Part shown: positions 12,507 through 60,981 of the stretch, piece after piece
How the letters are laid out: each line of letters starts with the position of its first letter
Position numbering within the stretch: the stretch's first letter is position 1
IMG/VR virus record: IMGVR_UViG_2593339207_000001
From: a virus
Reading direction: 5' to 3' (one strand)
DNA: 64,000 nt
Notes under the pieces: generated by a model
What the model was told of the DNA's origin: nothing
The model's database searches: none
What the model saw: the letters and a program-made list of their open reading frames with translations, nothing else
Position numbers and translations under genes: made by a program

Positions 12507-12538
12507 TTACTTACCGGAAGGGGCCTGGATGTGTCGGA
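12507..12538 (-). promoter_or_regulatory. Class-1 promoter-like motif upstream of baseplate J
   Basis: TCCGACA-N13-TCCGGTAAGTAA on the minus strand. Confidence 0.8.
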
Positions 12539-12549
12539 GGCGGGACGCC

Positions 12550-13467
12550 TCAGAGCGGGCCGCGCAGTTGCCAGACGGGATTGGGCTGCCCGGATGTGTT
12601 GTTGAGGTAGTGGGATTCCTTTTTGCCCTCGAAATAGAACAGACCGATGCGGCCCGGCTCCAGGGTGGTGATCCGGTGAACGGTGCCAGCGGCGTTGTCT
12701 TCCGCCTGACTCTGGGTGTCGAAGCCCAGACCGCTCGCGGCCAGATAGAGGGCGTGCTCGGCCTGGGGCGCTTCCGTTTCTGGCGCTCCCTCGAATGTCA
12801 GGTAATGGCCGTGGTTGTCACCTGGATCGCTGACGATCCACTTGCCGTTGCGGTCCTGATAGGCTCCCTCGATGTAGGCGACTTCGTATTCCCCGGCTGG
12901 CCAGATCAAGAAGTCGTTCGGATCGGGGCTCATCTCGACCGCGTCGAACCAGAGCAGATTGAACAGCGAGCGCACGTCCGGCGACAGGCGCACGCTGCGC
13001 ACCGGCGGCGGTTCCGGCTCGGGCTCCGGCTGGGGATAGCTGGGCGCGGGATTGTTCGGGTCTTCTCTGTAGAAGGGATAGACCAGGTTGCCGTCCACCT
13101 GGCTCTGGATCACCCGGTAGGCGATATGCACCAGCAGCAGGTTGCCGTCGATGTTCAGCGGCCGGTCGTCGAAGCGCACCTCCGTGATGATCACCCGCTT
13201 TTCCCAGCGCTTGATGGCGTCGATTACGTAATGGCGCAGCAGGCCCTTGAGCACCTCGTCGTTCTGTTCGAACACCAGATCCTTCAGCCGGGAGCCGAAC
13301 TCCGGATTCATGAACCGTTCGCCGATTCGGGTGCCGAGGATCTGCAGGATGCTTTCACGGATATGCTCGTGCTCCCGCGAGGTGGCGGTCGAGACCTGTG
13401 TGCCGCCGGATAGCGACTGAAACCGGAACGGGTAACGCAACCCCTTGCCGAGGAAATCGTAGCTCAT
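12550..13467 (-). CDS. gp25/GPW baseplate protein with Pro-rich linker and extra C-terminal domain
   Basis: MSYDFLGKGLRYPF...ILGTRIGERFMNPEFGSRL...WEKRV, then PQPEPEPEPPP and about 165 further aa. Confidence 0.85.
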   Translation of the reverse strand: MSYDFLGKGLRYPFRFQSLSGGTQVSTATSREHEHIRESILQILGTRIGERFMNPEFGSRLKDLVFEQNDEVLKGLLRHYVIDAIKRWEKRVIITEVRFDDRPLNIDGNLLLVHIAYRVIQSQVDGNLVYPFYREDPNNPAPSYPQPEPEPEPPPVRSVRLSPDVRSLFNLLWFDAVEMSPDPNDFLIWPAGEYEVAYIEGAYQDRNGKWIVSDPGDNHGHYLTFEGAPETEAPQAEHALYLAASGLGFDTQSQAEDNAAGTVHRITTLEPGRIGLFYFEGKKESHYLNNTSGQPNPVWQLRGPL

Positions 13468-14369
13468 CAGGCACGCTCCTCGCAGTCGAGGCCGCACTGT
13501 CCAGAGCAGCCATTTTCCGAAGTGCCGTCGTCAATGGCTTCTCCCTGGAACCGGACCACCAGATCCAGACCATTTTTTAGACCCAGGTGGATGGTTCCGT
13601 CCGCCTCGATCAGCCCGCCGTGGCTGGACTGGCCGCACCGGAATCCCTTGGCTCCGCCGGAGAGCAGACGGACAGCGATGGTTTCGCCGATGCCCTCGAT
13701 ACGGCCGATGCCGATGATGTCGATAGGTCCGGCCGGGTTGATCAGGGTGATGAACCGCTCCCGGTGATCGACGTCGAGGCGGATGCCCTCGGGCAGAACC
13801 ACCGCGAAGCGTTCCGCGCCCATGGCGGTCGGCTCGATCCCTGCGGGCAGTCCGCTGATACCGGCTGCCTCCTGGGTCGAACGCAGTTAGGACTCGACCA
13901 GGGTGTAAAGGCGTCCCGGGGCGACCTCGATGGCCGTGCCGGGTCCGGGGGTGATGACCTGCTGTTCTCCTCCGTCGATAACGCAGATTCGCTGATCGTC
14001 AGTGGTCCGCAGGATCATGCCGTCGGGCAAGGTGAAGAGCCGGTTGCCGTCCGGCAGATCCCGGGGTTCGGTGCCCGCAGGCAGTTCGACGAAGGGATAA
14101 AAATCGGGCTCCGGCTCGATCTGAACCTGGCCCAGGTACTCCTGCGTCCTGGACTGCTGGGCCTCCAGATAGGCTTGGGCCTGGCCGCGCATCGCCTCCG
14201 AGGCGGCGTGACCGGCCTCCAGCAACGTGCGGATGCCGGAAAGCTCTTCACGGATGCCGGACAGGTGATCGCAGAGCGCTCGCAGCACATACTGTTGTTC
14301 GCCGGAATCGGTCTGCTCGATAGTGGCCTGCAATTCGGCGGGTTCTTCGGAAATCATGACAACCTCCAT
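13467..14369 (-). pseudogene. About 300-codon gene interrupted by an in-frame TAA at 13887-13889
   Basis: ORFs 13887..14369 and 13467..13823 are in the same frame; read-through gives LVES*LRSTQE; LPAG[TI]EP repeat on both sides of the stop. Confidence 0.65.
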
Positions 14370-15379
14370 TACATGCCGACATTGGCGGGTTGGGATTGAT
14401 AGCTCATGGCGTTGACCGCCGTCACTGTTCCGGTCGCGCCGTCGATTTCGAATACGGTCCAGACCGTGCCAGGGGCGTTGGGAACGGTGAAGGTCTGCTC
14501 ACGGCCATCGCTCAAGAACACCTTCACCGATGCTCCGGACTGCGCCAGGCCGGTGCTCGGATTGGCGTTGCGGTTGGTGTAGTCGTGGACCGCGTAGCGG
14601 TAGACGCCGGGGATGAGCCGATGGATGGTGATGGTCTCCGGCCCATAGGAGCTGGTGTCGTCCACGTCCAATTCCGCCGCCTCGTTTTCGATGGTGTGGG
14701 AATAGAACACATGGAACCTGCCGCCGGATGGCGTCGGTCCGGTGAGATGGGAATCGAGGTCCCGGGGATTCAGGCCCCACTGCAACACGATGCGGGCTAC
14801 CTGGCCGTCGAGCTCGGGCGAGAGAACGATCTGGATGTCGCCGGAGGTGTTGGGGTCGGCATTCACCCAGCCATGCCAGGCGATGTATCCCGGCGCGGTG
14901 ACCTCCACGTAATAGAACCCCTCGGGTACGGACAGCTCGAACCCGCCATAGGCGTTGGCGAAGGTCTGGTACGCAGCCGGGCCGGTTTCCGAGCGGCGGA
15001 ATTCGATCAGCGCGTTGCCGACGCCGCTGGTGTTGAGGGCGTTGACCACCATGCCGCTGAGGAAGACCGTGGCTCCACTGGCAAAGTCCGGGTGGTCGGC
15101 GAACCAGGACGGATCGCGGACCTCCACCAGAACATGGCGGAGACTGTCCCGGGCCGAGGATCGCCAGACCATGAGCACGGCGTTGCCGATGGTCCAGCCG
15201 CAGCGAATGACACCGTCCGGCCCGATCTCCGCGACTTCCGGGTTGCTGGAGGCAAAGACCGGGGCGTCCACGTCGCCGCGCAGGGAGAGCGGAACCCGTT
15301 GCTCGAACTCGCCAGCGGAGAGGCGGATGGAGCGAGGCTGTACCTCCCAGTGGCTGAAGGCTGCCGGGGCATCCGTCAT
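14369..15379 (-). CDS. Ig-like + carboxypeptidase-regulatory-like + YfaP/DUF2135-like protein
   Basis: SSNPEVAEI Ig motif; LQWGLNPRDLDSH...LDVDDTSSYGPETITI...GVYRYAVHDY. Confidence 0.75.
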   Translation of the reverse strand: MTDAPAAFSHWEVQPRSIRLSAGEFEQRVPLSLRGDVDAPVFASSNPEVAEIGPDGVIRCGWTIGNAVLMVWRSSARDSLRHVLVEVRDPSWFADHPDFASGATVFLSGMVVNALNTSGVGNALIEFRRSETGPAAYQTFANAYGGFELSVPEGFYYVEVTAPGYIAWHGWVNADPNTSGDIQIVLSPELDGQVARIVLQWGLNPRDLDSHLTGPTPSGGRFHVFYSHTIENEAAELDVDDTSSYGPETITIHRLIPGVYRYAVHDYTNRNANPSTGLAQSGASVKVFLSDGREQTFTVPNAPGTVWTVFEIDGATGTVTAVNAMSYQSQPANVGM

Positions 15380-15684
15380 GAAGGGACCTCCACCGGTGCG
15401 GAGACGCCGCCGCCATAGACCTCGACCTGAACGTGCCGCAGGCTGAGCCGCTCGGGCGAATCCCAGACCAGAATCATGGCCGCTCCGGGAACGAAGCCGC
15501 ATTCGACATTGCCGTCCTCATCGACACTGGCCACGTCGGGATTGGACGATTCGAACACCGGCGCTTCGGGCAGACCACGGATCGAGAGCGGAATGCGCTG
15601 AACGAATGGGGATCGCGAGACCCGGATCAGTTTCGGGAAAACATCCCAGTAGTGCGGTTCCGGCGGCTGTTCGAGATTGTTCAT
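15376..15684 (-). CDS. Stand-alone Ig-like (Big_2-like) protein, paralog of the N-terminus of the next gene
   Basis: APVFESSNPDVASVDEDG...LRHVQVEV vs APVFASSNPEVAEIGPDG...LRHVLVEV. Confidence 0.75.
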   Translation of the reverse strand: MNNLEQPPEPHYWDVFPKLIRVSRSPFVQRIPLSIRGLPEAPVFESSNPDVASVDEDGNVECGFVPGAAMILVWDSPERLSLRHVQVEVYGGGVSAPVEVPS

Positions 15685-15694
15685 CGCGTCCCCC

Positions 15695-19480: not shown

Positions 19481-19512
19481 TTACTTACCGGAAGGCATGG
19501 CGAGGTGTCGGA
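19481..19512 (-). promoter_or_regulatory. Class-1 promoter-like motif upstream of gpD
   Basis: TCCGACA-N13-TCCGGTAAGTAA. Confidence 0.8.
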
Positions 19513-20597: not shown

Positions 20598-23500
20598 TCA
20601 CAGGGTTTCGTAGTTTCTGATCTTCCGCTCCCGCAGGTCCTTGTAGACGGCCTCGGCCACCTTCCGGCCATCGATGTTGGTGGTCACGCTCAGTTCCACC
20701 GGTCGGTCGGCCAAGCCATTGAGGCGCGAGAGCAGCGATTCCAGCAGTTCGCGCAGCCCCGGACCGGCTTCCTCTCCGCGCATGGGTGTCGCGGGAGCGG
20801 TGCGAGCCGGAGCGATCAACCGCTCGGAAGGCACCGTCTCGGCGAGTCCCGATTGCAGGGGCTTCGCTATCGGAGTCGGCGCGGTTGTCTTGGGCCGCTC
20901 GATCCCGGCCGGAGCCAGAGAAGCACTTCCGATTTCCGGTGCCGGTTCCACCGCATACGGCTGGATGTAGCTCTTACTTACCGGCTCGACGGCCGCCGCG
21001 ACGGTCTGCACGGTGCCGTTCATCGGTTGTGGGGGTGGCGCGGCCTTGGCCATGACTGGCTGGAGCATCAGCATGGCGCTCAGGGCCTTGGGCACCAGGC
21101 GTTCGTCCAGACGCGGAACGAGACTGAGCACGCTTTCGATGATGCGTTGCCCAATCGATTCGGCGGGCTGCGCGGTCTTGAGCGGTTGTTTCTGCTCGGC
21201 CACCTGCGGGACCGGGGTCTGGACTCCCAGCATGGCGCGAGCGGAGGAGAGCAAACCGTTGGCGATCCCAGTACTTCTATCCTTGATCGCCTGAATGCCC
21301 GCGCTCGCGCCGCTGGAAAGCCTTTGCCAGAGGGTTTGCCCCTCGGCACCGGCGTTGGTAAAGATTCGACCGACAGCGCCGGGCACGGCCGACAGCGTGG
21401 CAACGATCCGGTCGCGGAGATTGACGGCTCCCGTGGCCAGCGCGTCCCAGGTATTGGCTTGGGGCGGTTTGATCGCCAGCTCGGGCGTGTCGCCAAACAG
21501 GGATTGTTTGAGACCTCCGAAAATGGTACCAGCCTTGGCCGCGACGGTTTGAGCCCCGGAGGTCAACCCATCCCAGAGTTTTCCGGCCATGCGGAAGGGA
21601 GCTGAGGCGGCGTCCATGAGGTTGCCGCCCGCCGTTTTGATCTGCTGCCACGCTCCCGCAGCGGCCGAGAGAATTCCGCGAGCGGCGAAGCCGAACACTT
21701 TCGCGGGCAGCGTCTGGGTAAGGCTCATGCCGTCGGCGAGGGTCTTGAGCAGCGCGGAACCGGAGGCGGTCAGGCTGGCGAGTGGTCCCTCGCGGGCATC
21801 GGAGAACGGCAGCAGATTGCGCAGCTTGCCCAGGGCGTTCTTGAGCATGGTGACGGGATAGGTCACCGCCGACCAGATCCCTTCGCCCAGGGTGATCAGC
21901 AGCTTTTTGCCCGCCTCGAAGAAGGTGGTGTCCCCGGCGAAGAAAGAGCGCACGGTGGCAAACAGCTCCCGCAGTGTGCTGATGATCGGCAGATTCAGAA
22001 TCGCCTGGCCGATCTGTCCGGCGGCGTCGGCCACCAGGCGTCCGATGGAGGTAAAGATGCCGGAAATGAAATCCCAGACACCGACCATCACATCCCGCGC
22101 CCAGCGGAACGGGGTGGCAAGAAAATCGTAGACCGCACCGCCGATGGCCTTGAGCCCGTCCAGCAGGGAGATGTCACCGGTCAGCACCTGCCAGACCGCA
22201 TAGACGATCTTCCCGGCGGCCATGAAGGCCTCGCCGATCATGCGCACGGGCAACAGGAACTTGTAGATGAACTTGGTCGCTCCGATCAGGGACCCGACGA
22301 TGGCCTTGCCGACCCAGACCACGCTGCGCACCACCACCGCCAGGGCTCGGACGATGAGCGACAGGTTCCAGGCCACGATCTTCAGCGCGAATGCCAGCCC
22401 CTGCAGAAGCACACCGGCGACGGTGCCGATAACCGTGCCGAAGGTGCGCCAGGACGACCCATCGGTGGCGCTGGCGGCCACGCCGAAGATTTCCACCACT
22501 GAAAAGACCGCGCTGGCCAGCGCCGCGTAGGCACTCATCAGGGTGCGGACGGTCGGTTCGAGGATGGCGCGGATGCGGCCAAAGGCATGGGAGAACGCGC
22601 CCCACAATCCGGCCAGGGCCTCACGAACGCGGTAATAGGCTTTGAAGACGGTGACCACGAAGCCCAGCAGTCCGGCGGATTCGAGCTTCTGGGCCAGTTC
22701 GGCCGACATCTGCCCGACGCCGCCGCTGAGCGAACCCACCAGCTCTCTGATCCCCTGGAAGACCAGCGAGACCTTGTTCCAGGCCCCGGTGATGATCTCC
22801 TGAATGCCGCCGAAGTTGGTTTCCCAGGCGCGTTTGAGCAGATACACCGAGAGGATCACGCCCGCGATGATCGCGGTGACGGGCAGAAAATAGGTCGCGA
22901 CCGCCGAACCCACCCCGGCCAGCGCGGCGCTGATGGCCACGAACCCGGCCTTGATGGCGGGAAGCATGAGTCCCACCATGCCCACGGCGGCGGTGACGGC
23001 TCCGGCCACGACCAGAATGGTGCCGAGGGCCATGGACAGCCCCAGTACCACTCGGGTCACGCCCGGCATCGATTTGGCCATGCGTTGCAGGAATAGAATG
23101 AAGCGGGAGACGCCGTTGATCACCGGCGTGACCACCGGCAGCAGAGTGCGGCCCAGGATTTCGCTGAGGTTGGCCATCTGCTGGCGCAGAAGCAGGAACC
23201 GGGCTCCGATGTCCTGGTTCATGGCGTCGGCCATCTGTTCGGTGACCGCCGTGCCTGTCTTCATGGCCCGGCCTACCGACTGGATATTGCCTTCGAGGCT
23301 CTCCATGCCCGCCGACATCTGCAGCAGGAACTTGACCGCCTCGTCGGAGCCGAAGGCCTTCTTCAGCTTCACCTGGGCGGCGGCGTTGGAGAGGTCGGGG
23401 AACTGGCGCTTGATCTCTTGCAGGATAGGAACCACGCCCTTGAGGCGGCCGCTGGTGTCGGTGAAGGACAGCCCCAGCTCGTCCCCGGCCTCGGCCGCCT

Positions 23501-27996: not shown

Positions 27997-28028
27997 TTAC
28001 TTACCGGAAGCGCTGGCGATGTGTCGGA
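27997..28028 (-). promoter_or_regulatory. Class-1 promoter-like motif upstream of the terminator/sheath genes
   Basis: TCCGACA-N13-TCCGGTAAGTAA. Confidence 0.8.
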
Positions 28029-33479: not shown

Positions 33480-33511
33480 TTACTTACCGGAAGCGTCGTT
33501 GATGTGTCGGA
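33480..33511 (-). promoter_or_regulatory. Class-1 promoter-like motif upstream of the MTase-protease/capsid operon
   Basis: TCCGACA-N13-TCCGGTAAGTAA. Confidence 0.8.
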
Positions 33512-39585: not shown

Positions 39586-39617
39586 TTACTTACCGGAGCG
39601 GGGTGGAAAGCGTCGGA
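39586..39617 (-). promoter_or_regulatory. Class-1 promoter-like motif upstream of portal
   Basis: TCCGACG-N13-TCCGGTAAGTAA. Confidence 0.8.
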
Positions 39618-46105: not shown

Positions 46106-46137
46106 TTACTTACCGGAAGCGGCGGCCAACTGTCGGT
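46106..46137 (-). promoter_or_regulatory. Class-1 promoter-like motif upstream of TerS, overlapping the upstream stop codon
   Basis: ACCGACA-N13-TCCGGTAAGTAA. Confidence 0.75.
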
Positions 46138-46384
46138 CCCGGTCCTGTTTTCGTTCGGCGGCGATGATCTGGTTGACCCGGCGGGTGGTCACTCCAGCGA
46201 GGTTGGAGATCTCCTGGCTGCTGATCCCCTGCAGATGAAGGGCAAGCACCAGGTCGCGGCGTTCCTGGTAAAACCGGCTCGGTGCTGAAACCCAGAGAAT
46301 CCCGGTGTAGTGCTTCTGGATCTGCTCGAACAGTTCCTCGGGCAGGACATCCTTGGCGTTGGCGTAGCGTTTCTTTTTCTTCAC
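46106..46384 (-). CDS. Mor/CD3324-like HTH transcriptional regulator
   Basis: YANAKDVLPEELFEQIQKHY...ISSQEISNLAGVTTRRVNQII. Confidence 0.75.
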   Translation of the reverse strand: MKKKKRYANAKDVLPEELFEQIQKHYTGILWVSAPSRFYQERRDLVLALHLQGISSQEISNLAGVTTRRVNQIIAAERKQDRDRQLAAASGK

Positions 46385-47199: not shown

Positions 47200-47231
47200 T
47201 TACTTACCGGAGCCTGACCATGGGTGTCGGA
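47200..47231 (-). promoter_or_regulatory. Class-1 promoter-like motif
   Basis: TCCGACA-N13-TCCGGTAAGTAA. Confidence 0.8.
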
Positions 47232-47553: not shown

Positions 47554-47650
47554 ATCTCCGATTTCGTAACGATTTTTCCAGCCAAAGGCCGTTTTGTAAT
47601 CGTTTTTCAAGCCGGATAACTGTTTTGCCAAAGGACCGCGTGGATATAAA

Positions 47651-47689
47651 CAAGAAAAGCCCGCAGAAATGAATCCACGGGCCGGGCTT
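47651..47689 (-). terminator. Possible terminator after the primase gene
   Basis: AAGCCCG/CGGGCTT stem followed on the minus strand by TTCTTGTTT; large loop. Confidence 0.4.
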
Positions 47690-47713
47690 GGGTGATGATA
47701 TGGGTGATGCGAT

Positions 47714-53241: not shown

Positions 53242-53675
53242 TTCGCGATCCTCCGGTGAAAACGTGTCAGGTACTCCTCGACAAAACGGCAGGCGGCCTG
53301 CCGGTCCGAGCAGAAGTAGACTGGGACACCGAAGTCGACGACGATGGAGGCGACCGTTCCGATCAGCGCGTGCGGGTGGGCATCGCTGCGGTAGCGGCCA
53401 TCGACCAGATCGCGAAAGTTGCACTCGACAACCACGCAGGCGGCTTCATAGGCGGAGAGCTTTTCCAGCTCGCGGTGGAACCGCTTTCGGCCCCGGATGA
53501 CGGTGGAGACGAAATCCGTCAGGGATTTGCGCTCCACCGCCACCCGTTCCTCGAGGCCAACCAGCGAGTAATCACCGACGGGCAGCGCCTTGCGAACCGC
53601 CGAAACCTTGTCGCAATCGAAGCTGTAGGGCTCCTGTTCGCGGGTGTCGACGACAACGGTGATCCGGTCCATCAT
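53193..53675 (-). CDS. ERCC4-domain nuclease
   Basis: VVDTREQ...LPVGDY...VERKS. Confidence 0.92.
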   Translation of the reverse strand: MMDRITVVVDTREQEPYSFDCDKVSAVRKALPVGDYSLVGLEERVAVERKSLTDFVSTVIRGRKRFHRELEKLSAYEAACVVVECNFRDLVDGRYRSDAHPHALIGTVASIVVDFGVPVYFCSDRQAACRFVEEYLTRFHRRIAKCQKEMRVTRRDSGEE

Positions 53676-54148
53676 CAGAACGGGATCATGTCGTCCATCG
53701 CCGCGCCGGGAGCCCCGGCATCGTCGGCCATGACAATGCGACGGTTGAAGTAGATGTTCTCGTTTTCACCGCGAGTGCGTTTGGTCACCTCCAGCTTGAT
53801 GTTGAGAAGCTGCTCGAGGTGGCCCGGCAGGTCGGAGAGCTTCTGAAGCTGCAGCCCGCAGGTGTAGAGGTCCTGCTTGAGCCACTTGATGTTCTCGTTG
53901 CTGGCCATGACGTTGTTGCGCCAGAGCAGACGGCCCTTGTGGGTCGGAGCGAGAATGCGCAGGGTCCACTTGAGCATGGGGTTGCCCGAAGTCTGGGCGC
54001 GGGTCAGTTCGACCCGGTCGACGTTGACCTGGTACTTGCCGTCGGGGACGGCCTCGAACTCGCGTTCCTCGACTTCGGCGGTTTCAAAGGCGTCGTCGAA
54101 CTGCGCCAGGTCGAGGTTGCTGCTGGATTGGTTTTCGTAGTGTTCCAT
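53675..54148 (-). CDS. DUF669 single-stranded DNA-binding-like protein
   Basis: VPDGKYQV...TSGNPMLKWTL; acidic DDMIPF tail. Confidence 0.85.
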   Translation of the reverse strand: MEHYENQSSSNLDLAQFDDAFETAEVEEREFEAVPDGKYQVNVDRVELTRAQTSGNPMLKWTLRILAPTHKGRLLWRNNVMASNENIKWLKQDLYTCGLQLQKLSDLPGHLEQLLNIKLEVTKRTRGENENIYFNRRIVMADDAGAPGAAMDDMIPF

Positions 54149-54160
54149 GGTCGGATCTCC

Positions 54161-54931
54161 TTACTGTTGAGGTTTCGCCGCCGCACTCGCGGTCGGCTCC
54201 GGCTTCGGCCGGGCGGCACTCGCCGCAGCTCCGGCTGCCGTGTTGTTGAAGGCTTTAACGAAGCTCGAAAAATCGAGGGGGATGACTTCGGGGAGTCGGC
54301 CGGTGCGGTCACCGGCGTCGTAGTTGGGACTGGGCTTGGTGCGCATCACGCGCTGCCAGACCGGCTTGCCGTCATCGCCGGTTTTCATGTCCAGATCGCA
54401 GAACAGGATCAGATCCACCAGGCCGGTGACCAGCTTCCGCGCCTTTTCCGGCAGCGTCGGCACGATGCGGGTGTGTTTGCCGGTCCGGGTCTCGATGTCC
54501 CGCTCCTGGGAGTGGGAAATCAGGATCAGCCCGTAGGGCAGGAAGGCCAGCTTGTTGATGACGCGCTGGAACTCGTTGTTGATCAGCGCGTAGCCCTTGC
54601 CGTAGCCCAGGTCAGATTCGTGCTCGATCTTGAATTTCTTGCAGACGTAGTCCGAGCACATCTTGTAGGCGTTATCCACCGTATCGACGACGATGGTCTT
54701 GAACTCGTGCTTGCCCTCGGCGATTTCGGCACAGGCCTGCAGAAGGTCGTCCCAGCAGGTGATCGGGGTCTGGAACACCTCCAGGGCATTCAGGCCCGGC
54801 TCGGTCGCCAGGAACAGTGCGTCATCGGCCTTGGAGCACCAGGTGCTCTTGCCGATCTTGCTCGGGCCGTACACCAGGGCGGTGAGATCCGAGAGCGTGT
54901 GTTTGGGTTTGCTTTTGGTCTTGGGAAGCAT
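54161..54931 (-). CDS. AAA_24 (Sak4-like) ATPase
   Basis: YGPSKIGKST, TIVVDTVD, LISHSQ. Confidence 0.9.
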   Translation of the reverse strand: MLPKTKSKPKHTLSDLTALVYGPSKIGKSTWCSKADDALFLATEPGLNALEVFQTPITCWDDLLQACAEIAEGKHEFKTIVVDTVDNAYKMCSDYVCKKFKIEHESDLGYGKGYALINNEFQRVINKLAFLPYGLILISHSQERDIETRTGKHTRIVPTLPEKARKLVTGLVDLILFCDLDMKTGDDGKPVWQRVMRTKPSPNYDAGDRTGRLPEVIPLDFSSFVKAFNNTAAGAAASAARPKPEPTASAAAKPQQ

Positions 54932-54957
54932 GGCTTCGTCTCCTTATGGTTGGGATT

Positions 54958-55974
54958 TCAGAACACCGGAGCGGCGTCTTCACCGGCTCCGTCCCGCAGC
55001 TCTTCGTGCGGGGCGATCCGTTGGAAATGGTTTTCGATGACGTTGGGGTTGCCGCCCGAGCGGCAGAGCTGGAAGTAGGCGCAGGGCCTTCCGTACTGGA
55101 AGCAGTAGCTGGTGTTGCGGTAGAAGATGTTGCGCCGACGGGCGTCGAGCATGGCCTTGGAGAGTTCCCACAGCTCCGCCCGCAGTTCCTCGAACTGGTC
55201 GCGGGAGATGTAGAGCACCTCGCGGTGGAACATGCCCGGCTCGAGGTACTTCTCCTGGAGCCGTTGCTGGAAGGTGTCGTCGTCCTCCGGCAACTTGCGC
55301 TTGGCGCTGCTCTTGCCGGTTTTCGACTTGGCGATCAGCTCCGCCCGGCGGGCCTCGAATTCGGCTTCGGTCTCACCCTTTCCCTGGCGCAACTTGGCCT
55401 TGACCAGGACGTTGTAGATGATGCCGCTGACCGTGATGCCGAGGGTCTGCTCCAGGTACCAGGCGTAGAGGATGATCTGGAAATCGGTCCACAGCCGCTC
55501 CAGGTAGCTGGCGTCGATCTGCGAGGCGGTTTTGTGTTCCAGCAGGAAATACTGGCCATCCTGACGGACGATGCCGTCCACCTTCCCGGCGAGAATAAAA
55601 CTGCGTGAGGTCGCCCCGGTCGCCGGGTTGACGATGGGACCTTCGAAGGTCTTTTCGAGCGCGACGACCTCGAACGCTTCGGCCGGGTAGTGTTCCGCAT
55701 AGGCGCTCATCATGGCCCGGGCGAGATGCCAGTCGGCCTGTTGATGATCGTCCTGCGCCCGGTTTGGATAGGTCCGGTCGATGTGGTCGAGGACCTTGGC
55801 CAGCTCCCGCTCGCTGTGCCAGCACTCCAGGCAGTCGTGGATGACCGAGCCGAAGGCCAGATTGGGGTCGCGCTCGAGCGGCACCAGCTCGTCGATATAG
55901 CGCCACTTGCAGGCCATGCGGCAGTTGCGGAACAGCCGCCACATGGAATAGGTGGTGGTCATCAGCTCGCTCAT
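54958..55974 (-). CDS. PD-(D/E)XK Cas4-like exonuclease
   Basis: CRMACKW, GSVIH, GKVDG, LLEHKT, CFQYGRPCAYFQLC. Confidence 0.9.
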   Translation of the reverse strand: MSELMTTTYSMWRLFRNCRMACKWRYIDELVPLERDPNLAFGSVIHDCLECWHSERELAKVLDHIDRTYPNRAQDDHQQADWHLARAMMSAYAEHYPAEAFEVVALEKTFEGPIVNPATGATSRSFILAGKVDGIVRQDGQYFLLEHKTASQIDASYLERLWTDFQIILYAWYLEQTLGITVSGIIYNVLVKAKLRQGKGETEAEFEARRAELIAKSKTGKSSAKRKLPEDDDTFQQRLQEKYLEPGMFHREVLYISRDQFEELRAELWELSKAMLDARRRNIFYRNTSYCFQYGRPCAYFQLCRSGGNPNVIENHFQRIAPHEELRDGAGEDAAPVF

Positions 55975-56306
55975 ACCGCCACCCCCGCTTCGGCGGCGGG
56001 CGCTACGCGATGCTTGGAGGCACAGGCGCAACCCGACGGTTGGGATCGTTCGATCAGGACCGAGCGTTCACCGTATTCCTTGGTGGCGAAGCCAGTGAAG
56101 ATGCGGGCAAGGTCACTGCCGACATCGGTGGAGGCGTCGATCACGCAGGTACGTCGGGCCTTGTCCAAATTGAACCGGCTCTCCATCCGCACACGGGAAC
56201 GGCCATGCAGGCTTTCGACGGCCAGCATCGCCAGCATGAAAGTGTCTTCCAGTTCCTGGGCCGGGACCGACTCGTCAAAACGGTACTTGTAAGTGTCGTG
56301 AGTCAT
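55971..56306 (-). CDS. Hypothetical protein, first gene of the replication operon
   Basis: MTHDTYKYRF with GAGGAG RBS after a class-1 motif. Confidence 0.75.
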   Translation of the reverse strand: MTHDTYKYRFDESVPAQELEDTFMLAMLAVESLHGRSRVRMESRFNLDKARRTCVIDASTDVGSDLARIFTGFATKEYGERSVLIERSQPSGCACASKHRVAPAAEAGVAV

Positions 56307-56376
56307 GGTTGAACTCCTCTTTTGTTCAGGTTCTGATTTCCGAGGCCCCGGATAGCCGCACCATGCGGCACGGTGC

Positions 56377-56408
56377 TTACTTACCGGAGGCGGAGCCGAT
56401 GCGTCGGA
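56377..56408 (-). promoter_or_regulatory. Class-1 promoter-like motif directly after the sigma gene
   Basis: TCCGACG-N13-TCCGGTAAGTAA. Confidence 0.8.
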
Positions 56409-56410
56409 GA

Positions 56411-56995
56411 TCACAGGTAGTCCTCGAGCCCGGCCTCGCGGAATGCGTCCCTCAGCTTGCTCAGCCGGTCGTAGAGGGTGGTTCTGGGAATGCCCATCTC
56501 CCGGGCGACTTCGGCCATGGTGCTGTCGTGCAGACGCAAGCACAGATCCCGGAGCTCTTCCGGCAGCGAGGCGATGGCCTGGCCGAGATCCATGCGGATC
56601 TCATGGGCGAGACGCTCTCTTGTTTCGCGGGTGCCGCTTCCCAGAGAGCCTTCGCTATCCAGGAAGTCGATCCGCTCGGCGGTGTCGCCTTCGCCGTTGT
56701 CGAGGGGTTCGTTGAGTGAGGTTTGGCAGAGCCGCCAGTCCCGGCATTGGGCGAACCGTGCCTCCAGGATGGTGGAGATGTGACGTTCGACGATCCGGGC
56801 CATGAAGGTGGTCTTCTTGGCCTTGGCGGGATTGAAATGCCGCATCCGCTGCAGCAGATCGATCATCAGTTCCTGTTCGAGGTCGGGTCTGTCGTCCTCG
56901 GTGAATCCGGCCTTGCCTACGAGTTGACGTGCTTTGTGCCGAATGAGGTCGGCGGCATACTTGTCGATGCCGTCGTAAGAATTCTGTGAAACCAT
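56411..56995 (-). CDS. Phage sigma-70 family (ECF-like) sigma factor
   Basis: DLEQEL...FNPAKAKKTTF region 2; region 4 HTH STMAEVAREMGIPRTTLY. Confidence 0.88.
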   Translation of the reverse strand: MVSQNSYDGIDKYAADLIRHKARQLVGKAGFTEDDRPDLEQELMIDLLQRMRHFNPAKAKKTTFMARIVERHISTILEARFAQCRDWRLCQTSLNEPLDNGEGDTAERIDFLDSEGSLGSGTRETRERLAHEIRMDLGQAIASLPEELRDLCLRLHDSTMAEVAREMGIPRTTLYDRLSKLRDAFREAGLEDYL

Positions 56996-57000
56996 CGGGG

Positions 57001-57128
57001 CCTCCTCGGAGCGAGGAGGAGGTCCGCGTGGGTGTCGGCACGGGCCAGATCACAGGACAAAGCTGTCGCGTGGGCGAAGGGGTCGCAGGTACGCCGCCAA
57101 TTGCCGTATTCGGCTCGGCGACACCCAC
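57001..57128 (-). promoter_or_regulatory. Structured 5' leader of the sigma gene with SD-sequestering hairpin
   Basis: CCTCCTCG-CTC-CGAGGAGG covers the SD; 10-bp long-range stem GTGGGTGTCG/CGACACCCAC. Confidence 0.6.
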
Positions 57129-57190
57129 AACAGCCTCCGCCATGCGTCCAGCTTGTTGTCCAGTGTCTAAGGGTTCAGGTCGTTACGTGT

Positions 57191-57517
57191 TCAGGCTGCC
57201 CGTTCCTCGATGCGCATCAGGAACGGGAGACCGTGCTTGATCTCGAGCAGGCAGACTTTTCCGCTGCCCATCTGCGCGAGGTGCTCCAGCAGCGCCACGA
57301 CCTCTTGCTTGAGAATGAAGTCATCCTGGTCGCGCTCGGGCCGGGGACCGCTTTGTCCGCCCAGCTTGATCTCGCGCTCGATGACCGTGTCAGGGGTGAG
57401 TTCCGGCTCGCCTTCGCGGACCGGAATGTTGGTGATGCGGCCGAAGTTGATGTCCTGCATCAACTCGATGAGTCGCCGCTTCGGTGGGGTGAGGTGTGCT
57501 TTGTTGACTTGTGCCAC
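57191..57517 (-). CDS. Hypothetical protein upstream of sigma
   Basis: 108 aa, GGAG RBS, GTG start. Confidence 0.7.
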   Translation of the reverse strand: MAQVNKAHLTPPKRRLIELMQDINFGRITNIPVREGEPELTPDTVIEREIKLGGQSGPRPERDQDDFILKQEVVALLEHLAQMGSGKVCLLEIKHGLPFLMRIEERAA

Positions 57518-57574
57518 TGCCAGTCTCCTTGTTCGGAAGTTCTGGCACGCCCGGTGGCCAACCCTGTGCTGACC

Positions 57575-57626
57575 AATAAAAAACGCCGGATCGCGCCTTC
57601 ATTGGGGAAGGCGCTACATCCGGCGT
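57575..57626 (-). terminator. Terminator-like hairpin after the QueC-like gene
   Basis: ACGCCGGAT/ATCCGGCGT outer stem, GCGCCTTC/GAAGGCGC inner stem, then TTTTTTATT on the minus strand. Confidence 0.7.
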
Positions 57627-57690
57627 CGCAATGGCTACATTTGGCGTAGCGGAAATTTTTTTTAGTTTTTTCTTCCTGGGTGGTCCCGGG

Positions 57691-59793
57691 TCACTCGTTG
57701 ACTATCGGGCGGACCTCCCAAACGATCTCCTCTTCGGTCCGGTAGACCGGTTCGTTGCCGCACTTGATGGACTCCTTCAGGTGGGCGGCCAGCGGCTTGT
57801 CATACTTCTCCAGATACGTGATGGCCCGGTTCACGGCGTTCCGGAAGGCGTCGCGGATGTTCTTCCGCTTGTCGTTGGATTTCCGGAGTTTGCCACCCAG
57901 ACCAACCGCCTCGTTGATTGCTGTGGTCACCTTTGCCATTTCTTCTTCAAGCCGCTGAATCTCGGCAGCGTTGTTTTCTGCTCGTGCGTCTTCAATTTCT
58001 CGAAGAAGATCGTGAGCCGCCTCCCGGTACTGCTCGATAGCCTTGCGGTCGGCGACGAAGCCGGTATCGCCCAACGGAACCCCCTGGGTGACCTGAAAAC
58101 CGTCTTCGGTTTCATCAGAGTTCAGAAACGTGTTGCAGGTATTGATGGCCAACCCGCAGACGATCTCGTAGACCGAGGTTTCCTTGTTGGGCCTCGCCAG
58201 AAGGAAGTTGATGTACTCGGCTCCTTTGTCGACACCCGTCACGAGCACCTCGGCATTGCCGTTAAAGCGTGCGGCCCAGACACCCCCGCGCTTCCTGAAG
58301 TAGTTGTCCGGCTGCTTCTGCTCGACCGGAATAGCTGGGACAGAGATCACCGATCCCGATTCATAGACCGTCCGAAGCAAACAGTCTCCCGGCAAGGTGC
58401 GCTGACGGATGGCCGTGATGTTGCGGGCGACCATGGTGTCCATCGCTTCGCAGACCTCCTTGGCGTGGCGTTTGTAAAGGTCATAGACCTTCTGGGCCAC
58501 GCTTCCGGGGTTCCCATTCAAGTAGCGGAAGACCCGACTTACCTCGCTGAATCGAGCGATAAACTGGGTGATGTCATCCTGATCACGGACCTGGTTGGCT
58601 CGCTCCAGGTACGCGGCAGCCATGATCTTGTCCTCGTCCTTGCTTCGACTTTGGGTGAAGATATCGGCCTTATAGTCTTCCACGGGGTCATGCTGATCCG
58701 CTTTTGCCGCAATCATGGCAAAACGCCTGTCGATGCACTGCGAACACGTTCCGCAATGCGTATGGTGATTGGTCATCTCCCAGGTATGGGTGCAGGTGGT
58801 CGATGCCGCGATCATGTCCTGGCATCCGGCCTTGGTGATCACCTCGATAACACCGGCCTTGGTTTTCCAGATGTAGGGATTCTCAATCGTGAACGGTTCG
58901 CCAGCCACCAGGCTGATGATTTCCTGAAAGCCTCGGATCACCCTGGGGTGGGTGGTGCGTGTTGCCCGGCCGCCGACTACCTGAGCGCAGACCGGCAGAT
59001 TCAAACTGATGACCCCGTTTTCGTAAAAACGGACGCTTTTCAGATTGAGCATTTTTGCGATGGTCGCCCCGATAGACACATAAAGGAAGGATCGGCTGCG
59101 CTGGGTGTACTCGTAGTTCAGGCCCTTGTTCTTGTTGACCCGGACGCCGATGTGTAGCGGGGCGTTTTCCCCAGCCTTGTCGGCAATCATCTTTTCCAGG
59201 CGGCGGTGGCGCTTGTTGAGTTTCGGGGTTGACTTGTGGGTCACCAGGACGACCCGGTGCTTTTCGTTCAACACCTCGTCGATAGCTCCGGCCAGCGAAT
59301 CCAGGCCGCCTGAAAACATCACCACCTGTTCCGGATAACCGAGAAGACGCCCGTCATCGTTGAAGTCCAGATAGCCCTGGAATGCCTGAGCCTCTTTCAG
59401 TTTGACGAACTCGAAGTGATAGTTGTCGTCAGACAAGAAACCAAGCGTGGAGCGCAGCGCCTGGTGGATATCGTCTCCGTTCCAAAAATCTGGCTTCCGC
59501 ACCGGGATGATGAAGTGCAGATCCCTGCGCCAGCCATGGCCAAAAGAATCGACGTCGTCGGCCCCTCGTGGGATGGCCTGATCGGCACTGTAAACGTAGG
59601 TGGCGATTTCGAGCAGGTCCTGGAAAGAATCAGGCACGTCCTTGCTCATCTTTTTGTGGATGTCTTCAATGCGTAGGGTGATCTTGTCCGGCCCATCCTT
59701 ACCCCAAAGGCGCAGGCGCAGATCACGGTCAGGATTTTCTTCAATCCCATCGGTCGGTGCGTTCCCACAGATGATATATCGTTTATCTTGCAT
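57691..59793 (-). CDS. QueC/QatC-like PP-loop enzyme with C-terminal predicted DNA-binding domain
   Basis: DLLEIATYVYSAD...WRRDL N-domain, SGGLDS, TQRSRSF, CTH...HCGTCSQC; about 190-aa extension. Confidence 0.85.
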   Translation of the reverse strand: MQDKRYIICGNAPTDGIEENPDRDLRLRLWGKDGPDKITLRIEDIHKKMSKDVPDSFQDLLEIATYVYSADQAIPRGADDVDSFGHGWRRDLHFIIPVRKPDFWNGDDIHQALRSTLGFLSDDNYHFEFVKLKEAQAFQGYLDFNDDGRLLGYPEQVVMFSGGLDSLAGAIDEVLNEKHRVVLVTHKSTPKLNKRHRRLEKMIADKAGENAPLHIGVRVNKNKGLNYEYTQRSRSFLYVSIGATIAKMLNLKSVRFYENGVISLNLPVCAQVVGGRATRTTHPRVIRGFQEIISLVAGEPFTIENPYIWKTKAGVIEVITKAGCQDMIAASTTCTHTWEMTNHHTHCGTCSQCIDRRFAMIAAKADQHDPVEDYKADIFTQSRSKDEDKIMAAAYLERANQVRDQDDITQFIARFSEVSRVFRYLNGNPGSVAQKVYDLYKRHAKEVCEAMDTMVARNITAIRQRTLPGDCLLRTVYESGSVISVPAIPVEQKQPDNYFRKRGGVWAARFNGNAEVLVTGVDKGAEYINFLLARPNKETSVYEIVCGLAINTCNTFLNSDETEDGFQVTQGVPLGDTGFVADRKAIEQYREAAHDLLREIEDARAENNAAEIQRLEEEMAKVTTAINEAVGLGGKLRKSNDKRKNIRDAFRNAVNRAITYLEKYDKPLAAHLKESIKCGNEPVYRTEEEIVWEVRPIVNE

Positions 59794-60571
59794 CGGCTCG
59801 CGCTCCTTCTTTTAGCTCGTCCTTCATCTTTTTCAGCGCGTAAGAGGCGAAGCCATTGGAAGACTCCCTGGAGATGTCACCACCTTCTTCGTACCTGTGC
59901 TTCGAAAACCAATCTGCTGAAAACTGCTCGACGATCAGGGACGCCTCTTTACAGTGCGTGTTCAGAGCCTTCTCGAATTGTTCCATTTCATTCATGGTGG
60001 CAAAGCGCTGGCCCTCGCCAAGATGGGTAGCCAGCGTTTTTGAAAGGAAGTAGTTCATGCTCTCGTTGGTCAGCTTGGCGAAGAAAGTCCGCGACAGCTC
60101 TCCGAACTCTCGCTTTTTACCGAGCGCCGCCAGTGCGGCCCGAACATCATCTGGCCCGGGGGCGAAGAGAGACGGCAGTTTTGGTGAGATGTGCTCTACC
60201 AGGGCTCCGACCAATGCACGCTGAGACATTTCACCGAGGTCGGATCGGCCACCGTTGGACTCCAATTTGTTATCCAGGGCCTCGGAGACTGCGGCGGCAA
60301 GATCGGGAAGGGATGTATCCTGCGGCAGGTTGACGCCGAGGGATTGGAGATGCTCGCCGAGGTTCTCCTTTTTTGCGGCAATGGCGAGCTGCGTCATCAA
60401 CCAGACCGCCTCGGTGAACCCCTCATCGTTGAGCACGAAGGTGAATGCTTTATCGGCTGCCCGGATTGTTGCGTTTGCGATTTGGGACACGTCGGCACCG
60501 GCCGTGATCAGGCCGACCACCTCTTTCCATGCCCTCGACCTCGGAAGGCTTCCAAGTCTGACGTGCCCCAT
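59783..60571 (-). CDS. QatB-like helical protein with N-terminal Gly
   Basis: 262 aa, all-helical composition, starts MG, overlaps the QueC-like start. Confidence 0.55.
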   Translation of the reverse strand: MGHVRLGSLPRSRAWKEVVGLITAGADVSQIANATIRAADKAFTFVLNDEGFTEAVWLMTQLAIAAKKENLGEHLQSLGVNLPQDTSLPDLAAAVSEALDNKLESNGGRSDLGEMSQRALVGALVEHISPKLPSLFAPGPDDVRAALAALGKKREFGELSRTFFAKLTNESMNYFLSKTLATHLGEGQRFATMNEMEQFEKALNTHCKEASLIVEQFSADWFSKHRYEEGGDISRESSNGFASYALKKMKDELKEGARADAR

Positions 60572-60604
60572 GTCGATCTCCTTATTTTTCGCGACCCAGC
60601 ATCG

Positions 60605-60838
60605 TTACTCGGGCCTCCTGATGACGACGATGCTTCGGGCCTTACGAGCTTCTTTCTTCAGATAGCCTTTCCGTACCAGTTGAGCGATCTGCTCGTGGGC
60701 GCTCGCGTGGCTGATACCAAGGACTTCCGACAATTCTTTCACCGTTGGCGGCAACCCCTTTTCATCGATGATTTGGCAAATGACCCTCAGCGTGTTTGCT
60801 TGTGGGTCGGTTATTTCCGATACCTTTCCCTTTCCCAA
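60605..60838 (-). CDS. LexA DNA-binding-domain-only repressor candidate
   Basis: GLPPTVKELSEVLGIS...LVRKGYL..EARKARSI; no peptidase domain. Confidence 0.85.
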   Translation of the reverse strand: MGKGKVSEITDPQANTLRVICQIIDEKGLPPTVKELSEVLGISHASAHEQIAQLVRKGYLKKEARKARSIVVIRRPE

Positions 60839-60903
60839 GGCGATTGCTCCGTGTCGTAGCCACTGAGCGGATTAAGCCCAATTTATGACCACAAAATATA
60901 CGA

Positions 60904-60919
60904 CCTGATGAACATCAGG
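60904..60919. promoter_or_regulatory. Palindromic operator candidate in the divergent control region
   Basis: CCTGATG-AA-CATCAGG. Confidence 0.5.
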
Positions 60920-60949
60920 CCAATAAAAAAACAGGACTTCTCGTCTGAT

Positions 60950-60981
60950 TCCGTCATCTTGCACGTCCCTCCGGTAGGTAA
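60950..60981 (+). promoter_or_regulatory. Class-1 motif on the plus strand facing the recombinase module
   Basis: TCCGTCA-N13-TCCGGTAGGTAA. Confidence 0.65.

What the first reader, a model, noticed from the sequence alone, without database searches (positions are those of the whole stretch)
12507..60981. Prophage-wide regulon: 9-10 fixed-length 32-bp motifs probably read by the phage sigma factor
Seen: TCCGACR-N13-TCCGGTAAGTAA with invariant spacing at 12507, 19481, 27997, 33480, 39586, 46106, 47200 and 56377 (all -), plus 60950 (+, two mismatches) and a degenerate copy at 20974. Each sits in front of an operon: baseplate, hub, sheath, capsid, portal, TerS, Mor-like, replication and recombinase. 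One overlaps the stop codon of the upstream gene (GGT AAG TAA). Inference: bipartite -35/-10 promoters for the ECF-like sigma at 56411..56995, which would couple excision, replication and morphogenesis to one switch. The Mor-like protein is an alternative activator. This could provide an orthogonal sigma/promoter pair.
Basis: partly seen in the sequence, partly recalled or inferred. Interest (0 to 1): 0.75.

Follow-up and report, generated by a model that had tools for sequence, protein, structure and literature searches.

The report
Prophage sigma factor and its promoters
A 60-kb prophage carries nine near-identical 32-bp promoter-like sites, one in front of almost every operon, that are most likely read by the phage's own small (ECF-type) sigma factor; the same sigma/site pair recurs in related prophages of many bacterial groups and, in drifted form, in Wolbachia phage WO.

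Summary
TCCGACR-N13-TCCGGTAAGTAA occurs 9 times strongly and once weakly in the window, against 0 expected. Outside the prophage, the 3.7-Mb genome holds it at only one other locus.

All strong copies lie in gene gaps, point the same way as the next gene, and sit 24-90 nt before its start. The two boxes and their spacing are fixed, while the spacer sequence is free.

The 194-aa protein at 56411-56995 is an ECF-type sigma. It passes NCBIfam's sigma70-ECF cut-off, matches a PHROG sigma family, and its model matches solved ECF sigmas.

Across 80 related loci (sigma identity 44-99%) the motif sits just after the sigma stop codon. Two divergent prophages keep it at matching gaps. Among 401 genomes of the phylum, the 8 with four or more motif copies are exactly the 8 with this sigma.

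Phage WO (sigma 25% identical) has a parallel motif at the same position.

No transcription start data could be obtained, so the promoter function and the sigma dependence are inferred. They are not shown.

This is a new member of a known kind: a phage sigma with its own promoters.

The parts
56411..56995 (-). Phage sigma factor, 194 aa, ECF-type (sigma2 + linker + sigma4)
   Evidence: NCBIfam TIGR02937 sigma70-ECF scores 57.3 bits against a cut-off of 42.9. PHROG 1740 'RNA polymerase sigma factor' has E 3.5e-25. Pfam Sigma70_r2 and r4_2 fall just under their cut-offs. The best PDB profile hit is ECF RpoE 2q1z, E 9.6e-6. The AF2 model shows two helical domains, and the top 20 Foldseek hits are all ECF sigmas.
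56377..56408 (-). Promoter-like site 2 nt after the sigma stop codon, in front of the replication/recombination operon (111-aa gene, PD-(D/E)XK nuclease, AAA_24, DUF669, RecD-like helicase, primase)
   Evidence: 40.1 bits. The position is conserved in nearly all of the 80 sigma loci.
60950..60981 (+). Promoter-like site (TCCGTC / GGTAGGTAA variant) in front of the DUF2924 + large serine recombinase operon
   Evidence: 33.9 bits. The same site precedes DUF2924 in relatives, even where that operon has the opposite orientation relative to the sigma.
47200..47231 (-). Promoter-like site in front of the 257-aa gene and the 92-aa HTH gene
   Evidence: 34.0 bits. A hairpin followed by a T-run lies just upstream.
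46106..46137 (-). Promoter-like site overlapping the last codons and the stop of the 92-aa HTH gene, in front of the packaging region (166-aa gene ... TerL)
   Evidence: 37.5 bits. TerL is at 41206-42729 by Pfam.
39586..39617 (-). Promoter-like site in front of the portal gene
   Evidence: 41.9 bits.
33480..33511 (-). Promoter-like site in front of the head operon (803-aa D12 methylase/protease-like fusion ... major head protein 29758-30621)
   Evidence: 42.5 bits.
27997..28028 (-). Promoter-like site in front of the tail operon (207-aa gene, 85-aa gene, tail sheath 25547-27076, tape measure)
   Evidence: 43.0 bits.
19481..19512 (-). Promoter-like site in front of the 427-aa tail protein and the following baseplate genes
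   Evidence: PHROG 52, E 9.8e-48; 39.7 bits.
12507..12538 (-). Promoter-like site in front of baseplate J and the tail-fibre genes
   Evidence: 43.0 bits.
20974..21005 (-). Degenerate copy inside the 1211-aa tape-measure ORF; a weak internal promoter or a relic
   Evidence: It has 3 mismatches and scores 16.3 bits against a null maximum of 9.8. It is kept in near-identical relatives but has no counterpart in the divergent prophages SynB and DalkA.
57191..57517 (-). 108-aa gene always found just upstream of the sigma; a candidate partner (anti-sigma or co-factor), function unknown
   Evidence: Synteny holds across the loci at 36-99% identity (alignment A2). The AF2 model has pLDDT 89.4. There are no Pfam, PHROG or NCBIfam hits and no PDB fold match.
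55971..56306 (-). 111-aa gene, the first gene behind the sigma-adjacent site; conserved across the family
46106..46384 (-). 92-aa HTH protein, weakly Mor/C-like ('late transcriptional activator')
   Evidence: PHROG 836 has E 5.9e-4. There is no Pfam Mor hit.

Best explanation
The 32-bp sites are promoters of a prophage-wide regulon read by host core RNA polymerase carrying the phage's own ECF-type sigma (56411-56995). CCGAC(A/G) would be the -35 box, read by sigma4. CCGGTA(A/G)GTA(A/T) would be the -10 and melting region, read by sigma2. The rigid 15-nt gap reflects the short sigma2-sigma4 linker. Transcription would start about 5-9 nt after the motif. The sigma gene and the conserved 108-aa gene before it have no such site, so they must be expressed first from a host-read, presumably repressor-controlled, promoter. 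Once made, the sigma would turn on replication, the recombinase operon (excision), packaging, head, tail and baseplate operons together. Shown here: the sites, their geometry and placement, the sigma's identity, and their co-conservation. Inferred: the binding, the start sites, and the order of events.
For: 1. There are nine strong sites against 0 expected. All lie in gene gaps, are co-oriented with the next gene, sit 24-90 nt before its start, and often follow the previous stop codon by only 2-11 nt.
2. The logo from 70 non-redundant sites is bipartite. Positions 1-11 and 20-32 carry information, the 8 nt between them carry none, and the flanks carry none. The gap is invariant in 31 of 31 sites.
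3. If G25-T26-A27 is taken as -12 to -10, then CCGAC falls at -35 to -31. This is the geometry of ECF promoters (AAC ... CGT), judged from general knowledge of that family.
4. The protein is an ECF-type sigma.
5. In the 3.7-Mb host genome the motif is confined to the prophage plus one small module, so no host sigma regulon uses it.
6. The site follows the sigma stop codon in nearly all of 80 loci with 44-99% sigma identity. The boxes are kept while the spacer changes.
7. Five other genomes each hold 7-13 clustered copies on one strand. The divergent prophages SynB and DalkA (sigma 51% and 47% identical) keep sites at syntenic gaps.
8. Among 401 genomes of the phylum, the 8 with four or more motif hits are exactly the 8 with a sigma-family hit at E<=1e-20. 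The reversed-pattern control never exceeds 1 hit per genome.
9. Phage WO (sigma 25% identical) has GGAC-N14/15-CCGTGTATATAT just after its sigma gene, before its AAA24 replication module, and before two structural modules. A wMel WO has GGACGAATT...TCGTACATAT.
Against: There are no transcription start or expression data. Only assembled contigs of metatranscriptomes were available, and they cannot show 5' ends. Co-occurrence with the sigma is also co-occurrence with every other conserved gene of the same prophage lineage. Within the family the boxes do not vary, so no sigma/promoter covariation could be scored; only the drift seen in WO speaks to it. The 12-nt conserved '-10' part is longer than usual for ECF promoters, and its core is GGTA rather than CGT. 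Unlike many ECF sigmas, this one has no copy of its own promoter upstream.
Confidence: 0.8

Rival explanations
1. The sites are binding sites of a phage activator that recruits a host sigma holoenzyme, as at Mu late promoters. Candidates are the 92-aa Mor/C-like HTH protein or the 257-aa protein.
For: The 92-aa protein has a weak hit to PHROG 836 'late transcriptional activator' (E 5.9e-4). TCCG recurs 20 bp apart (TCCGAC ... TCCGGT), which could suit two tandem protomers.
Against: There is no Pfam Mor hit. The motif has no sigma70-like -10 hexamer and no dyad. The site that drives the replication genes lies directly after the sigma gene in all relatives. The activator gene itself lies behind one of the sites, so something else must fire first. 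A host sigma would differ between the phyla that carry near-identical copies.
Confidence: 0.07
2. The sites are operator-like sites of a phage repressor spread through the genome, like the 'stoperators' of cluster A mycobacteriophages. They would block transcription in the lysogen rather than start it.
For: The distribution is the same as for stoperators: many asymmetric sites, one orientation relative to transcription, in short intergenic gaps. A LexA-type HTH gene lies at 60605-60838.
Against: Stoperators are single 13-14-bp boxes, whereas these are two boxes with a fixed free spacer in -35/-10 geometry. No site lies at the sigma or repressor control region itself. The WO counterpart looks like a classical ECF promoter, GGAC ... 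CGTA.
Confidence: 0.05
3. The motif acts in RNA, for example as a processing site or a translational-coupling or stop signal (TAAGTAA closes two reading frames) at operon junctions.
For: The motif is co-oriented with transcription. It lies between co-directional genes. In one case it supplies the real stop codon.
Against: The two boxes have no internal complementarity. The conserved part includes a box about 20 nt upstream with a sequence-free spacer of fixed length, which fits a protein reading double-stranded DNA. The 60950 and 47200 copies lie downstream of non-coding stretches, the 47200 copy just after a terminator-like hairpin.
Confidence: 0.03

Closest known systems
Coliphage phiEco32 sigma gp36 with its middle/late promoters and the co-factor gp79
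   Same: A small phage-encoded sigma redirects host core polymerase to a phage-specific conserved element (AATGTA centred at -11.5). A small phage protein, gp79, helps it (PMC12276001). Here too a small conserved gene (108 aa) accompanies the sigma.
   Different: phiEco32 is a virulent podophage with early, middle and late classes. Its promoter element, as described, is a -10-type box only. The element here is temperate. The site is bipartite and 32 bp long. It covers the replication, recombinase and all structural operons. No sequence relation to gp36 or gp79 was tested.
Cellular ECF (group 4) sigma factors and their promoters, e.g. E. coli sigmaE, M. tuberculosis SigH/SigE/SigL, P. aeruginosa AlgU
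   Same: The fold and domain set are the same. The promoter is bipartite with a rigid spacer, and the distance between the -35 'AC' and the -10 'GT' is comparable.
   Different: The boxes are CCGAC / CCGGTAnGTA rather than GGAAC / CGT. The conserved -10 part is much longer. No recognisable anti-sigma gene lies downstream. No auto-regulatory promoter was found. The sigma is encoded by and serves a prophage.
Wolbachia phage WO 'sigma-70 family' gene (gwv_1123 in KX522565.1)
   Same: It is a distant homologue (25% identity). The synteny is the same: sigma, then a site, then an AAA24 replication module. It has a parallel bipartite site with the same GAC-to-CCG distance.
   Different: The genome is AT-rich. 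Only three copies were found in that record, and the box sequences have drifted. No paper on promoters of this sigma was found in the library searched.
Mu Mor/C activators; SPO1 gp28 and T4 gp55 late sigmas (general knowledge, not tested here)
   Same: They are phage-encoded factors that switch polymerase to phage promoters.
   Different: Mor and C are activators of sigma70 holoenzyme at promoters that keep a -10 hexamer. gp28 and gp55 belong to virulent phages and recognise other, mostly single-box, elements.

Membership tests
Sigma-70 family, group 4 (ECF-type) sigma factor | A sigma2 domain (regions 2.1-2.4) is present | tested here: met
   NCBIfam TIGR02937 scores 57.3 bits against a cut-off of 42.9 over residues 16-187. 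Pfam Sigma70_r2 scores 22.8 bits, just under its 24-bit cut-off. The PDB RpoE 2q1z alignment covers residues 21-74.
Sigma-70 family, group 4 (ECF-type) sigma factor | A sigma4 domain with a helix-turn-helix is present | tested here: met
   Pfam Sigma70_r4_2 scores 21.1 bits (cut-off 25.7) at residues 135-180. PDB matches to SigE, sigmaE and AlgU cover residues 102-188. R165, G168, R171, T173 and Y175 are conserved in alignment A1.
Sigma-70 family, group 4 (ECF-type) sigma factor | Only two domains and about 200 aa, with no region 1.1 and no sigma3 domain | tested here: met
   The protein is 194 aa. The AF2 model shows helices 12-84 and 123-187 joined by a low-confidence linker of about 35 residues. 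The top 20 Foldseek hits are all ECF sigmas.
Sigma-70 family, group 4 (ECF-type) sigma factor | Binds core RNA polymerase and directs initiation | not testable with these tools
   This needs in vitro transcription or reporter assays.
Sigma-70 family, group 4 (ECF-type) sigma factor | A cognate anti-sigma is encoded next to it (usual, not obligatory) | tested here: inconclusive
   A 108-aa gene is always found upstream. It has no family or fold match.
Sigma-70 family, group 4 (ECF-type) sigma factor | Auto-regulation from its own promoter type (usual, not obligatory) | tested here: not met
   No site of 8 bits or more lies between 56996 and 60949.
ECF-type bipartite promoter | Two conserved boxes separated by a non-conserved spacer of fixed length | tested here: met
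   Shown by the logo of 70 non-redundant sites. All 31 sites have the same gap.
ECF-type bipartite promoter | Upstream of and co-oriented with the genes it serves | tested here: met
   All nine strong sites lie 24-90 nt before the next start codon. Syntenic sites occur in SynB, DalkA and DalkB.
ECF-type bipartite promoter | Transcription starts a few nt downstream of the -10 box | not testable with these tools
   Only contigs of RNA runs were available. There is a weak purine preference at motif positions 38-40.
ECF-type bipartite promoter | Activity depends on the cognate sigma | not testable with these tools
   The evidence is indirect only: 8 of 8 genomes with the sigma have four or more sites, and 0 of 393 without it do.
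Mor/C-dependent late promoters (Mu-like) | A Mor/C family activator is encoded | tested here: inconclusive
   Only PHROG 836 at E 5.9e-4 for the 92-aa protein. Pfam gives no Mor hit.
Mor/C-dependent late promoters (Mu-like) | A sigma70-type -10 hexamer with a dyad activator site upstream | tested here: not met
   The conserved sequence has no TATAAT-like hexamer and no dyad symmetry.
Stoperators (cluster A mycobacteriophages) | A single asymmetric 13-14-bp repressor site repeated in one orientation in intergenic gaps | tested here: not met
   Orientation and placement match. However, the site is bipartite and 32 bp long with a free spacer.

The most novel reading that the evidence does not exclude
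The phage's self-supplied sigma/promoter pair makes its whole lytic and excision programme independent of host promoter recognition. This would be what lets 92-98%-identical copies live in bacteria of different phyla. Hosts, or other mobile elements, have in turn wired their own genes to it. A small module of two tandem copies of the promoter plus a ~330-nt terminated transcript travels with type I restriction-modification islands, also in genomes that lack the phage. It could act as a phage sensor, a decoy or a satellite switch.
Probability: 0.3. Interest if true: 0.85.

Novelty: new member of a known kind. Interest (0 to 1): 0.64.

Why it matters
It defines, from sequence alone, a complete and simple control circuit for a widespread and so far undescribed family of temperate tailed phages: one sigma and nine promoters.

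It offers a natural sigma/promoter pair that may work in many bacterial groups, which would be useful as an orthogonal expression part.

It gives a testable reason for an unusually broad host distribution.

It points to candidate promoters of the sigma in Wolbachia phage WO. No paper on these was found in the library searched.

It also turns up a chromosomal module outside the prophage that carries the phage's promoter type.

Tried and rejected
- **RNA evidence.** All 20 runs that hold the stretch are kept as assembled contigs. Four of them, laid on 39300-59299, gave no places where molecules begin and no strand information, so nothing can be said on transcription starts.
- **Fold search of the 108-aa protein in the PDB.** No match reached E<=0.001.
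- **Covariation of motif and sigma within the family.** The boxes are invariant from 44 to 99% sigma identity, so there is nothing to correlate. Only WO shows drift.
- **Literature.** The motif strings turned up only in unrelated papers. Searches for phage ECF sigmas, cross-phylum prophages, and WO sigma promoters found no description of this family.
- **Rfam on the extra-prophage module.** Only chance hairpin hits below threshold.
- **Gapped-dyad enumeration in WO.** It was swamped by ankyrin repeats, and the WO motif was found by eye next to the sigma gene.
- **A third WO record (MW788656).** It showed no obvious counterpart near its sigma.
Rejected because the host genome has no copies outside the prophage and the small module.
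- **My own crude gene caller.** It mis-called some opposite-strand ORFs, for example over the sheath gene, so gene limits rest on family hits.
Full report
**1. Observation.**
No match was found in 100 shuffles.

A weight matrix built later from 70 non-redundant family sites gives nine sites of 34-43 bits. The copy at 20974 scores 16.3 bits. Nothing else in the window reaches 8 bits, and the highest score in 30 simulated windows was 9.8.

The window is G000:C1:2144381-2208380 of a 3.72-Mb genome with 57% GC, against 61.5% in the window. A genome-wide scan finds the motif only in the window and at one further locus 77 kb to the left.

**2. Anatomy of the sites.**
All nine strong sites lie between genes and point the same way as the next gene. 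They end 24-90 nt before a start codon that has a Shine-Dalgarno-like sequence.

Four of them begin only 2-11 nt after the stop codon of the preceding gene (56377, 19481, 27997, 12507). One (46106) contains the last codons and the stop codon of the 92-aa gene 46106-46384.

The non-redundant logo has two informative blocks: tCCGACR..T at positions 1-11 and yTCCGGTArGTAw at positions 20-32. The 8 nt between them and the flanks carry no information. There is a weak purine preference at positions 38-40.

The distance between CCGAC and CCGGTA is 15 nt in 31 of 31 sites of four prophages. No site has any other gap from 12 to 18 nt.

The two boxes are not complementary to each other, so a hairpin is not the conserved feature (read directly from the sequence).

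If G25-T26-A27 is taken as -12 to -10, CCGAC falls at -35 to -31. That is the layout of ECF-type promoters (AAC ... CGT). This comparison rests on general knowledge of that family, not on a test made here.

**3. The genes behind the sites.**
- Site 12507 precedes baseplate J.
- Site 19481 precedes a PHROG 'tail protein'.
- Site 27997 precedes the operon that holds the tail sheath (25547-27076) and the tape measure.
- Site 33480 precedes an 803-aa D12-methylase/protease-like fusion and the major head protein (29758-30621).
- Site 39586 precedes the portal gene.
- Site 46106 precedes the packaging region, which ends in TerL (41206-42729).
- Site 47200 precedes a 257-aa gene and the 92-aa HTH gene.
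- Site 56377 precedes a 111-aa gene, a PD-(D/E)XK nuclease, AAA_24, DUF669, a RecD-like helicase and a primase.
- Site 60950 (+ strand) precedes DUF2924 and a large serine recombinase.

The operons without a site are these:
- the sigma operon itself;
- the QueC-like operon upstream of it;
- the + strand inserts;
- the left-end amidoligase operon.

**4. The candidate reader.**
The 194-aa protein at 56411-56995 passes NCBIfam's curated cut-off for the sigma70-ECF superfamily: 57.3 bits against 42.9, over residues 16-187. It matches PHROG 1740 'RNA polymerase sigma factor' at E 3.5e-25.

It gives ordered Pfam hits to Sigma70_r2 and r4_2 just below their cut-offs. Its best profile match among solved structures is the ECF sigma RpoE 2q1z, E 9.6e-6, with both domains aligned.

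The AlphaFold model (pLDDT 72.6) has two helical domains joined by a disordered linker of about 35 residues. Its top 20 Foldseek matches in the PDB are all ECF sigmas: M. tuberculosis SigE, SigH and SigL, AlgU, E. coli sigmaE and a Bartonella RpoE. Probabilities are 0.99-1.00. The TM-scores are low, probably because the two domains of the free model are placed differently (my reading).

It is the only prophage protein found that has two DNA-reading domains suited to a rigid bipartite site.

**5. Relatives.**
The sigma has more than 200 homologues in the protein collection. Eighty loci were fetched from species-representative genomes.

In nearly all loci that extend past the gene, the motif begins 2-30 nt after the sigma stop codon. 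This holds across sigma identities from 99% down to 44%. The boxes are kept (CCGAC; CCGGTA-A/G/T-GTA-A/T), the gap is kept, and the spacer letters differ.

The 108-aa gene upstream and the 111-aa gene downstream are conserved with it.

Whole-genome scans of five carriers found 7-13 copies each, on one strand and clustered in 45-55 kb around the sigma gene.

Two divergent prophages were fetched in full: Syntrophus buswellii (sigma 51% identical) and the second prophage of Desulfosarcina alkanivorans (47%). Both keep sites at the corresponding gene gaps, with unrelated spacers and flanks. They have no counterpart of the 20974 copy.

The recombinase operon keeps its site even in relatives where that operon lies in the other orientation relative to the sigma.

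**6. Co-occurrence.**
In 401 genomes sampled from the host's phylum, 25 have at least one exact match to CCGAC-N15-CCGGTA-N-GTA. Eight of them have 4-11 matches. The reversed-pattern control never gives more than one match per genome.

A profile search for the sigma family at E<=1e-20 finds it in 8 genomes, and they are the same eight.

Two caveats apply. The sigma and the sites belong to one prophage lineage, so this does not single out the sigma among the conserved phage genes. The E-value limit may also hide very divergent sigmas in genomes that have only 1-3 sites.

**7. A distant replicate.**
The only phage records with a relative of the sigma are Wolbachia WO phages, at 24-27% identity.

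In KX522565.1 the sigma gene (56080-56571) is followed by an AAA24 replication module, as it is here. A parallel bipartite sequence, TTGGACGAATT-N8/9-ACCGTGTATATAT, occurs three times:
- just after the sigma gene;
- divergently, in front of the genes that lead into the tail module;
- at the record's end, reading into the terminase/head module.

The GAC-to-CCG distance is 14-15 nt, against 15 nt here.

A wMel WO record has GGACGAATT...TCGTACATATAT on both sides of its sigma gene. Its CGTA core is the classical ECF -10 core. A third WO record showed no clear counterpart.

**8. Mechanism proposed.**
Host polymerase first makes the 108-aa protein and the sigma, from the control region between 57518 and 57690. 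That region has a terminator-like hairpin and repeated ATGTAGC words. How this step is gated is unknown.

The sigma then directs core polymerase to the nine sites. This turns on replication, the recombinase operon, packaging, head, tail and baseplate genes together. The variant boxes at 46106, 47200 and 60950 probably tune their strength.

These steps are inferred. No transcript ends could be obtained.

The closest characterised case I could document is coliphage phiEco32. Its sigma gp36 reads a conserved AATGTA element at middle and late promoters, and the small protein gp79 displaces sigma70 and stabilises gp36 (PMC12276001). The always-adjacent 108-aa protein might play such a role or be an anti-sigma. 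Its confident model has no known fold relative.

**9. Rivals.**
- **A Mor/C-type activator working with a host sigma.** It is supported only by a weak PHROG hit for the 92-aa protein. It fits poorly with the lack of a -10 hexamer and of a dyad. It also fits poorly with the activator gene lying behind one of the sites, and with near-identical phages living in hosts of different phyla.
- **A 'stoperator'-like repressor system.** It shares the placement and orientation of the sites but not the bipartite form.
- **An RNA-level signal.** It does not explain a box 20 nt upstream across a sequence-free spacer of fixed length.

**10. Verdict.**

Phage-encoded sigmas with their own promoters are a known kind. 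This family, its 32-bp site, its reach over the recombinase and replication genes, and the link to WO appear undescribed in the library searched.

Noticed in passing
G000:C1:2067520-2067990 (= L081:9920-10372), 77 kb left of the window: Two tandem copies of the motif lie about 70 bp apart and are followed by a ~330-nt conserved stretch. It ends in a hairpin plus T-run that is supported by compensatory changes. The module is 83-93% identical in six other genomes, three of which lack the sigma (G269, G063, G225). Its short ORF (MDINDLFD...) is cut at different places in most copies, so an RNA or a tiny peptide is more likely than a 62-aa protein. In three genomes it travels with an XRE gene and a type I R-M methylase, and in Ectothiorhodospira it sits beside HsdR and a HerA-like gene. 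It has no Rfam family.
   Followed up: partly
L098/L099 (Wolbachia phage WO KX522565.1) 55728-55754, 56599-56631, 65190-65220; L100 (MN180251.1) around its sigma gene: Phage WO has its own bipartite site (TTGGACGAATT ... CCGTGTATATAT, or TCGTACATATAT in wMel WO). It lies next to WO's distant sigma homologue and in front of the replication, tail and head modules. These are candidate WO promoters.
   Followed up: partly
Loci L001-L031 against window 46000-64000: By their record titles, the carriers include isolates of Desulfobacterota (Desulfofustis, Desulfobulbus, Desulfocarbo, Desulfosarcina) and of Gammaproteobacteria (Ectothiorhodospira shaposhnikovii DSM 243). They also include long MAG contigs labelled Hydrogenedentales (1.16 Mb), Verrucomicrobiota, Omnitrophota, Pedobacter and Anaerolineales. 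Identity to the window is mostly 92-98% at nucleotide level (two loci 86-90%). Host assignments were not checked independently, and MAG binning errors are possible for short contigs. The stretch is also held by aquatic, wastewater and sludge runs of 7 studies.
   Followed up: partly
47232-47713: An AT-richer gap (45% GC) between the primase gene and the 47200 site holds 10 of the window's 20 CCGAAAG/CTTTCGG heptamers, in both orientations. These look like iterons of a replication origin or a packaging site.
   Followed up: no
57122-57140 (-), 61030-61054 (+), 2702-2711 (-): A shared leader element, GCGGAGGCTG...GTTGTGGGTG, lies in the 5' leader of the sigma gene and, downstream of the 60950 site, in the leader of the recombinase operon. 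Part of it recurs before the amidoligase operon. It may be an SD plus GTG start of short upstream ORFs, or an RNA element.
   Followed up: partly
39623-41205: Contigs of two runs join 39622 directly to 41206. Variants of the phage therefore lack the + strand 436-aa gene (39811-41121), which is inserted just upstream of the portal site, and it is probably a cargo gene.
   Followed up: no
46121 and 28013: One metagenome contig runs from the -10 box of the 46106 site into the sequence upstream of the 27997 site. This is either an assembly crossing through the shared box or recombination between promoter copies.
   Followed up: no
31015-33426 (-): An 803-aa protein joins a D12 N6-adenine methyltransferase domain to a coiled-coil region and a weak prohead-protease-like region. 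It is the first gene of the head operon.
   Followed up: no
57191-57517 (-): The 108-aa partner gene of the sigma folds confidently (pLDDT 89.4) into an alpha/beta domain. It has no family and no PDB fold match.
   Followed up: partly
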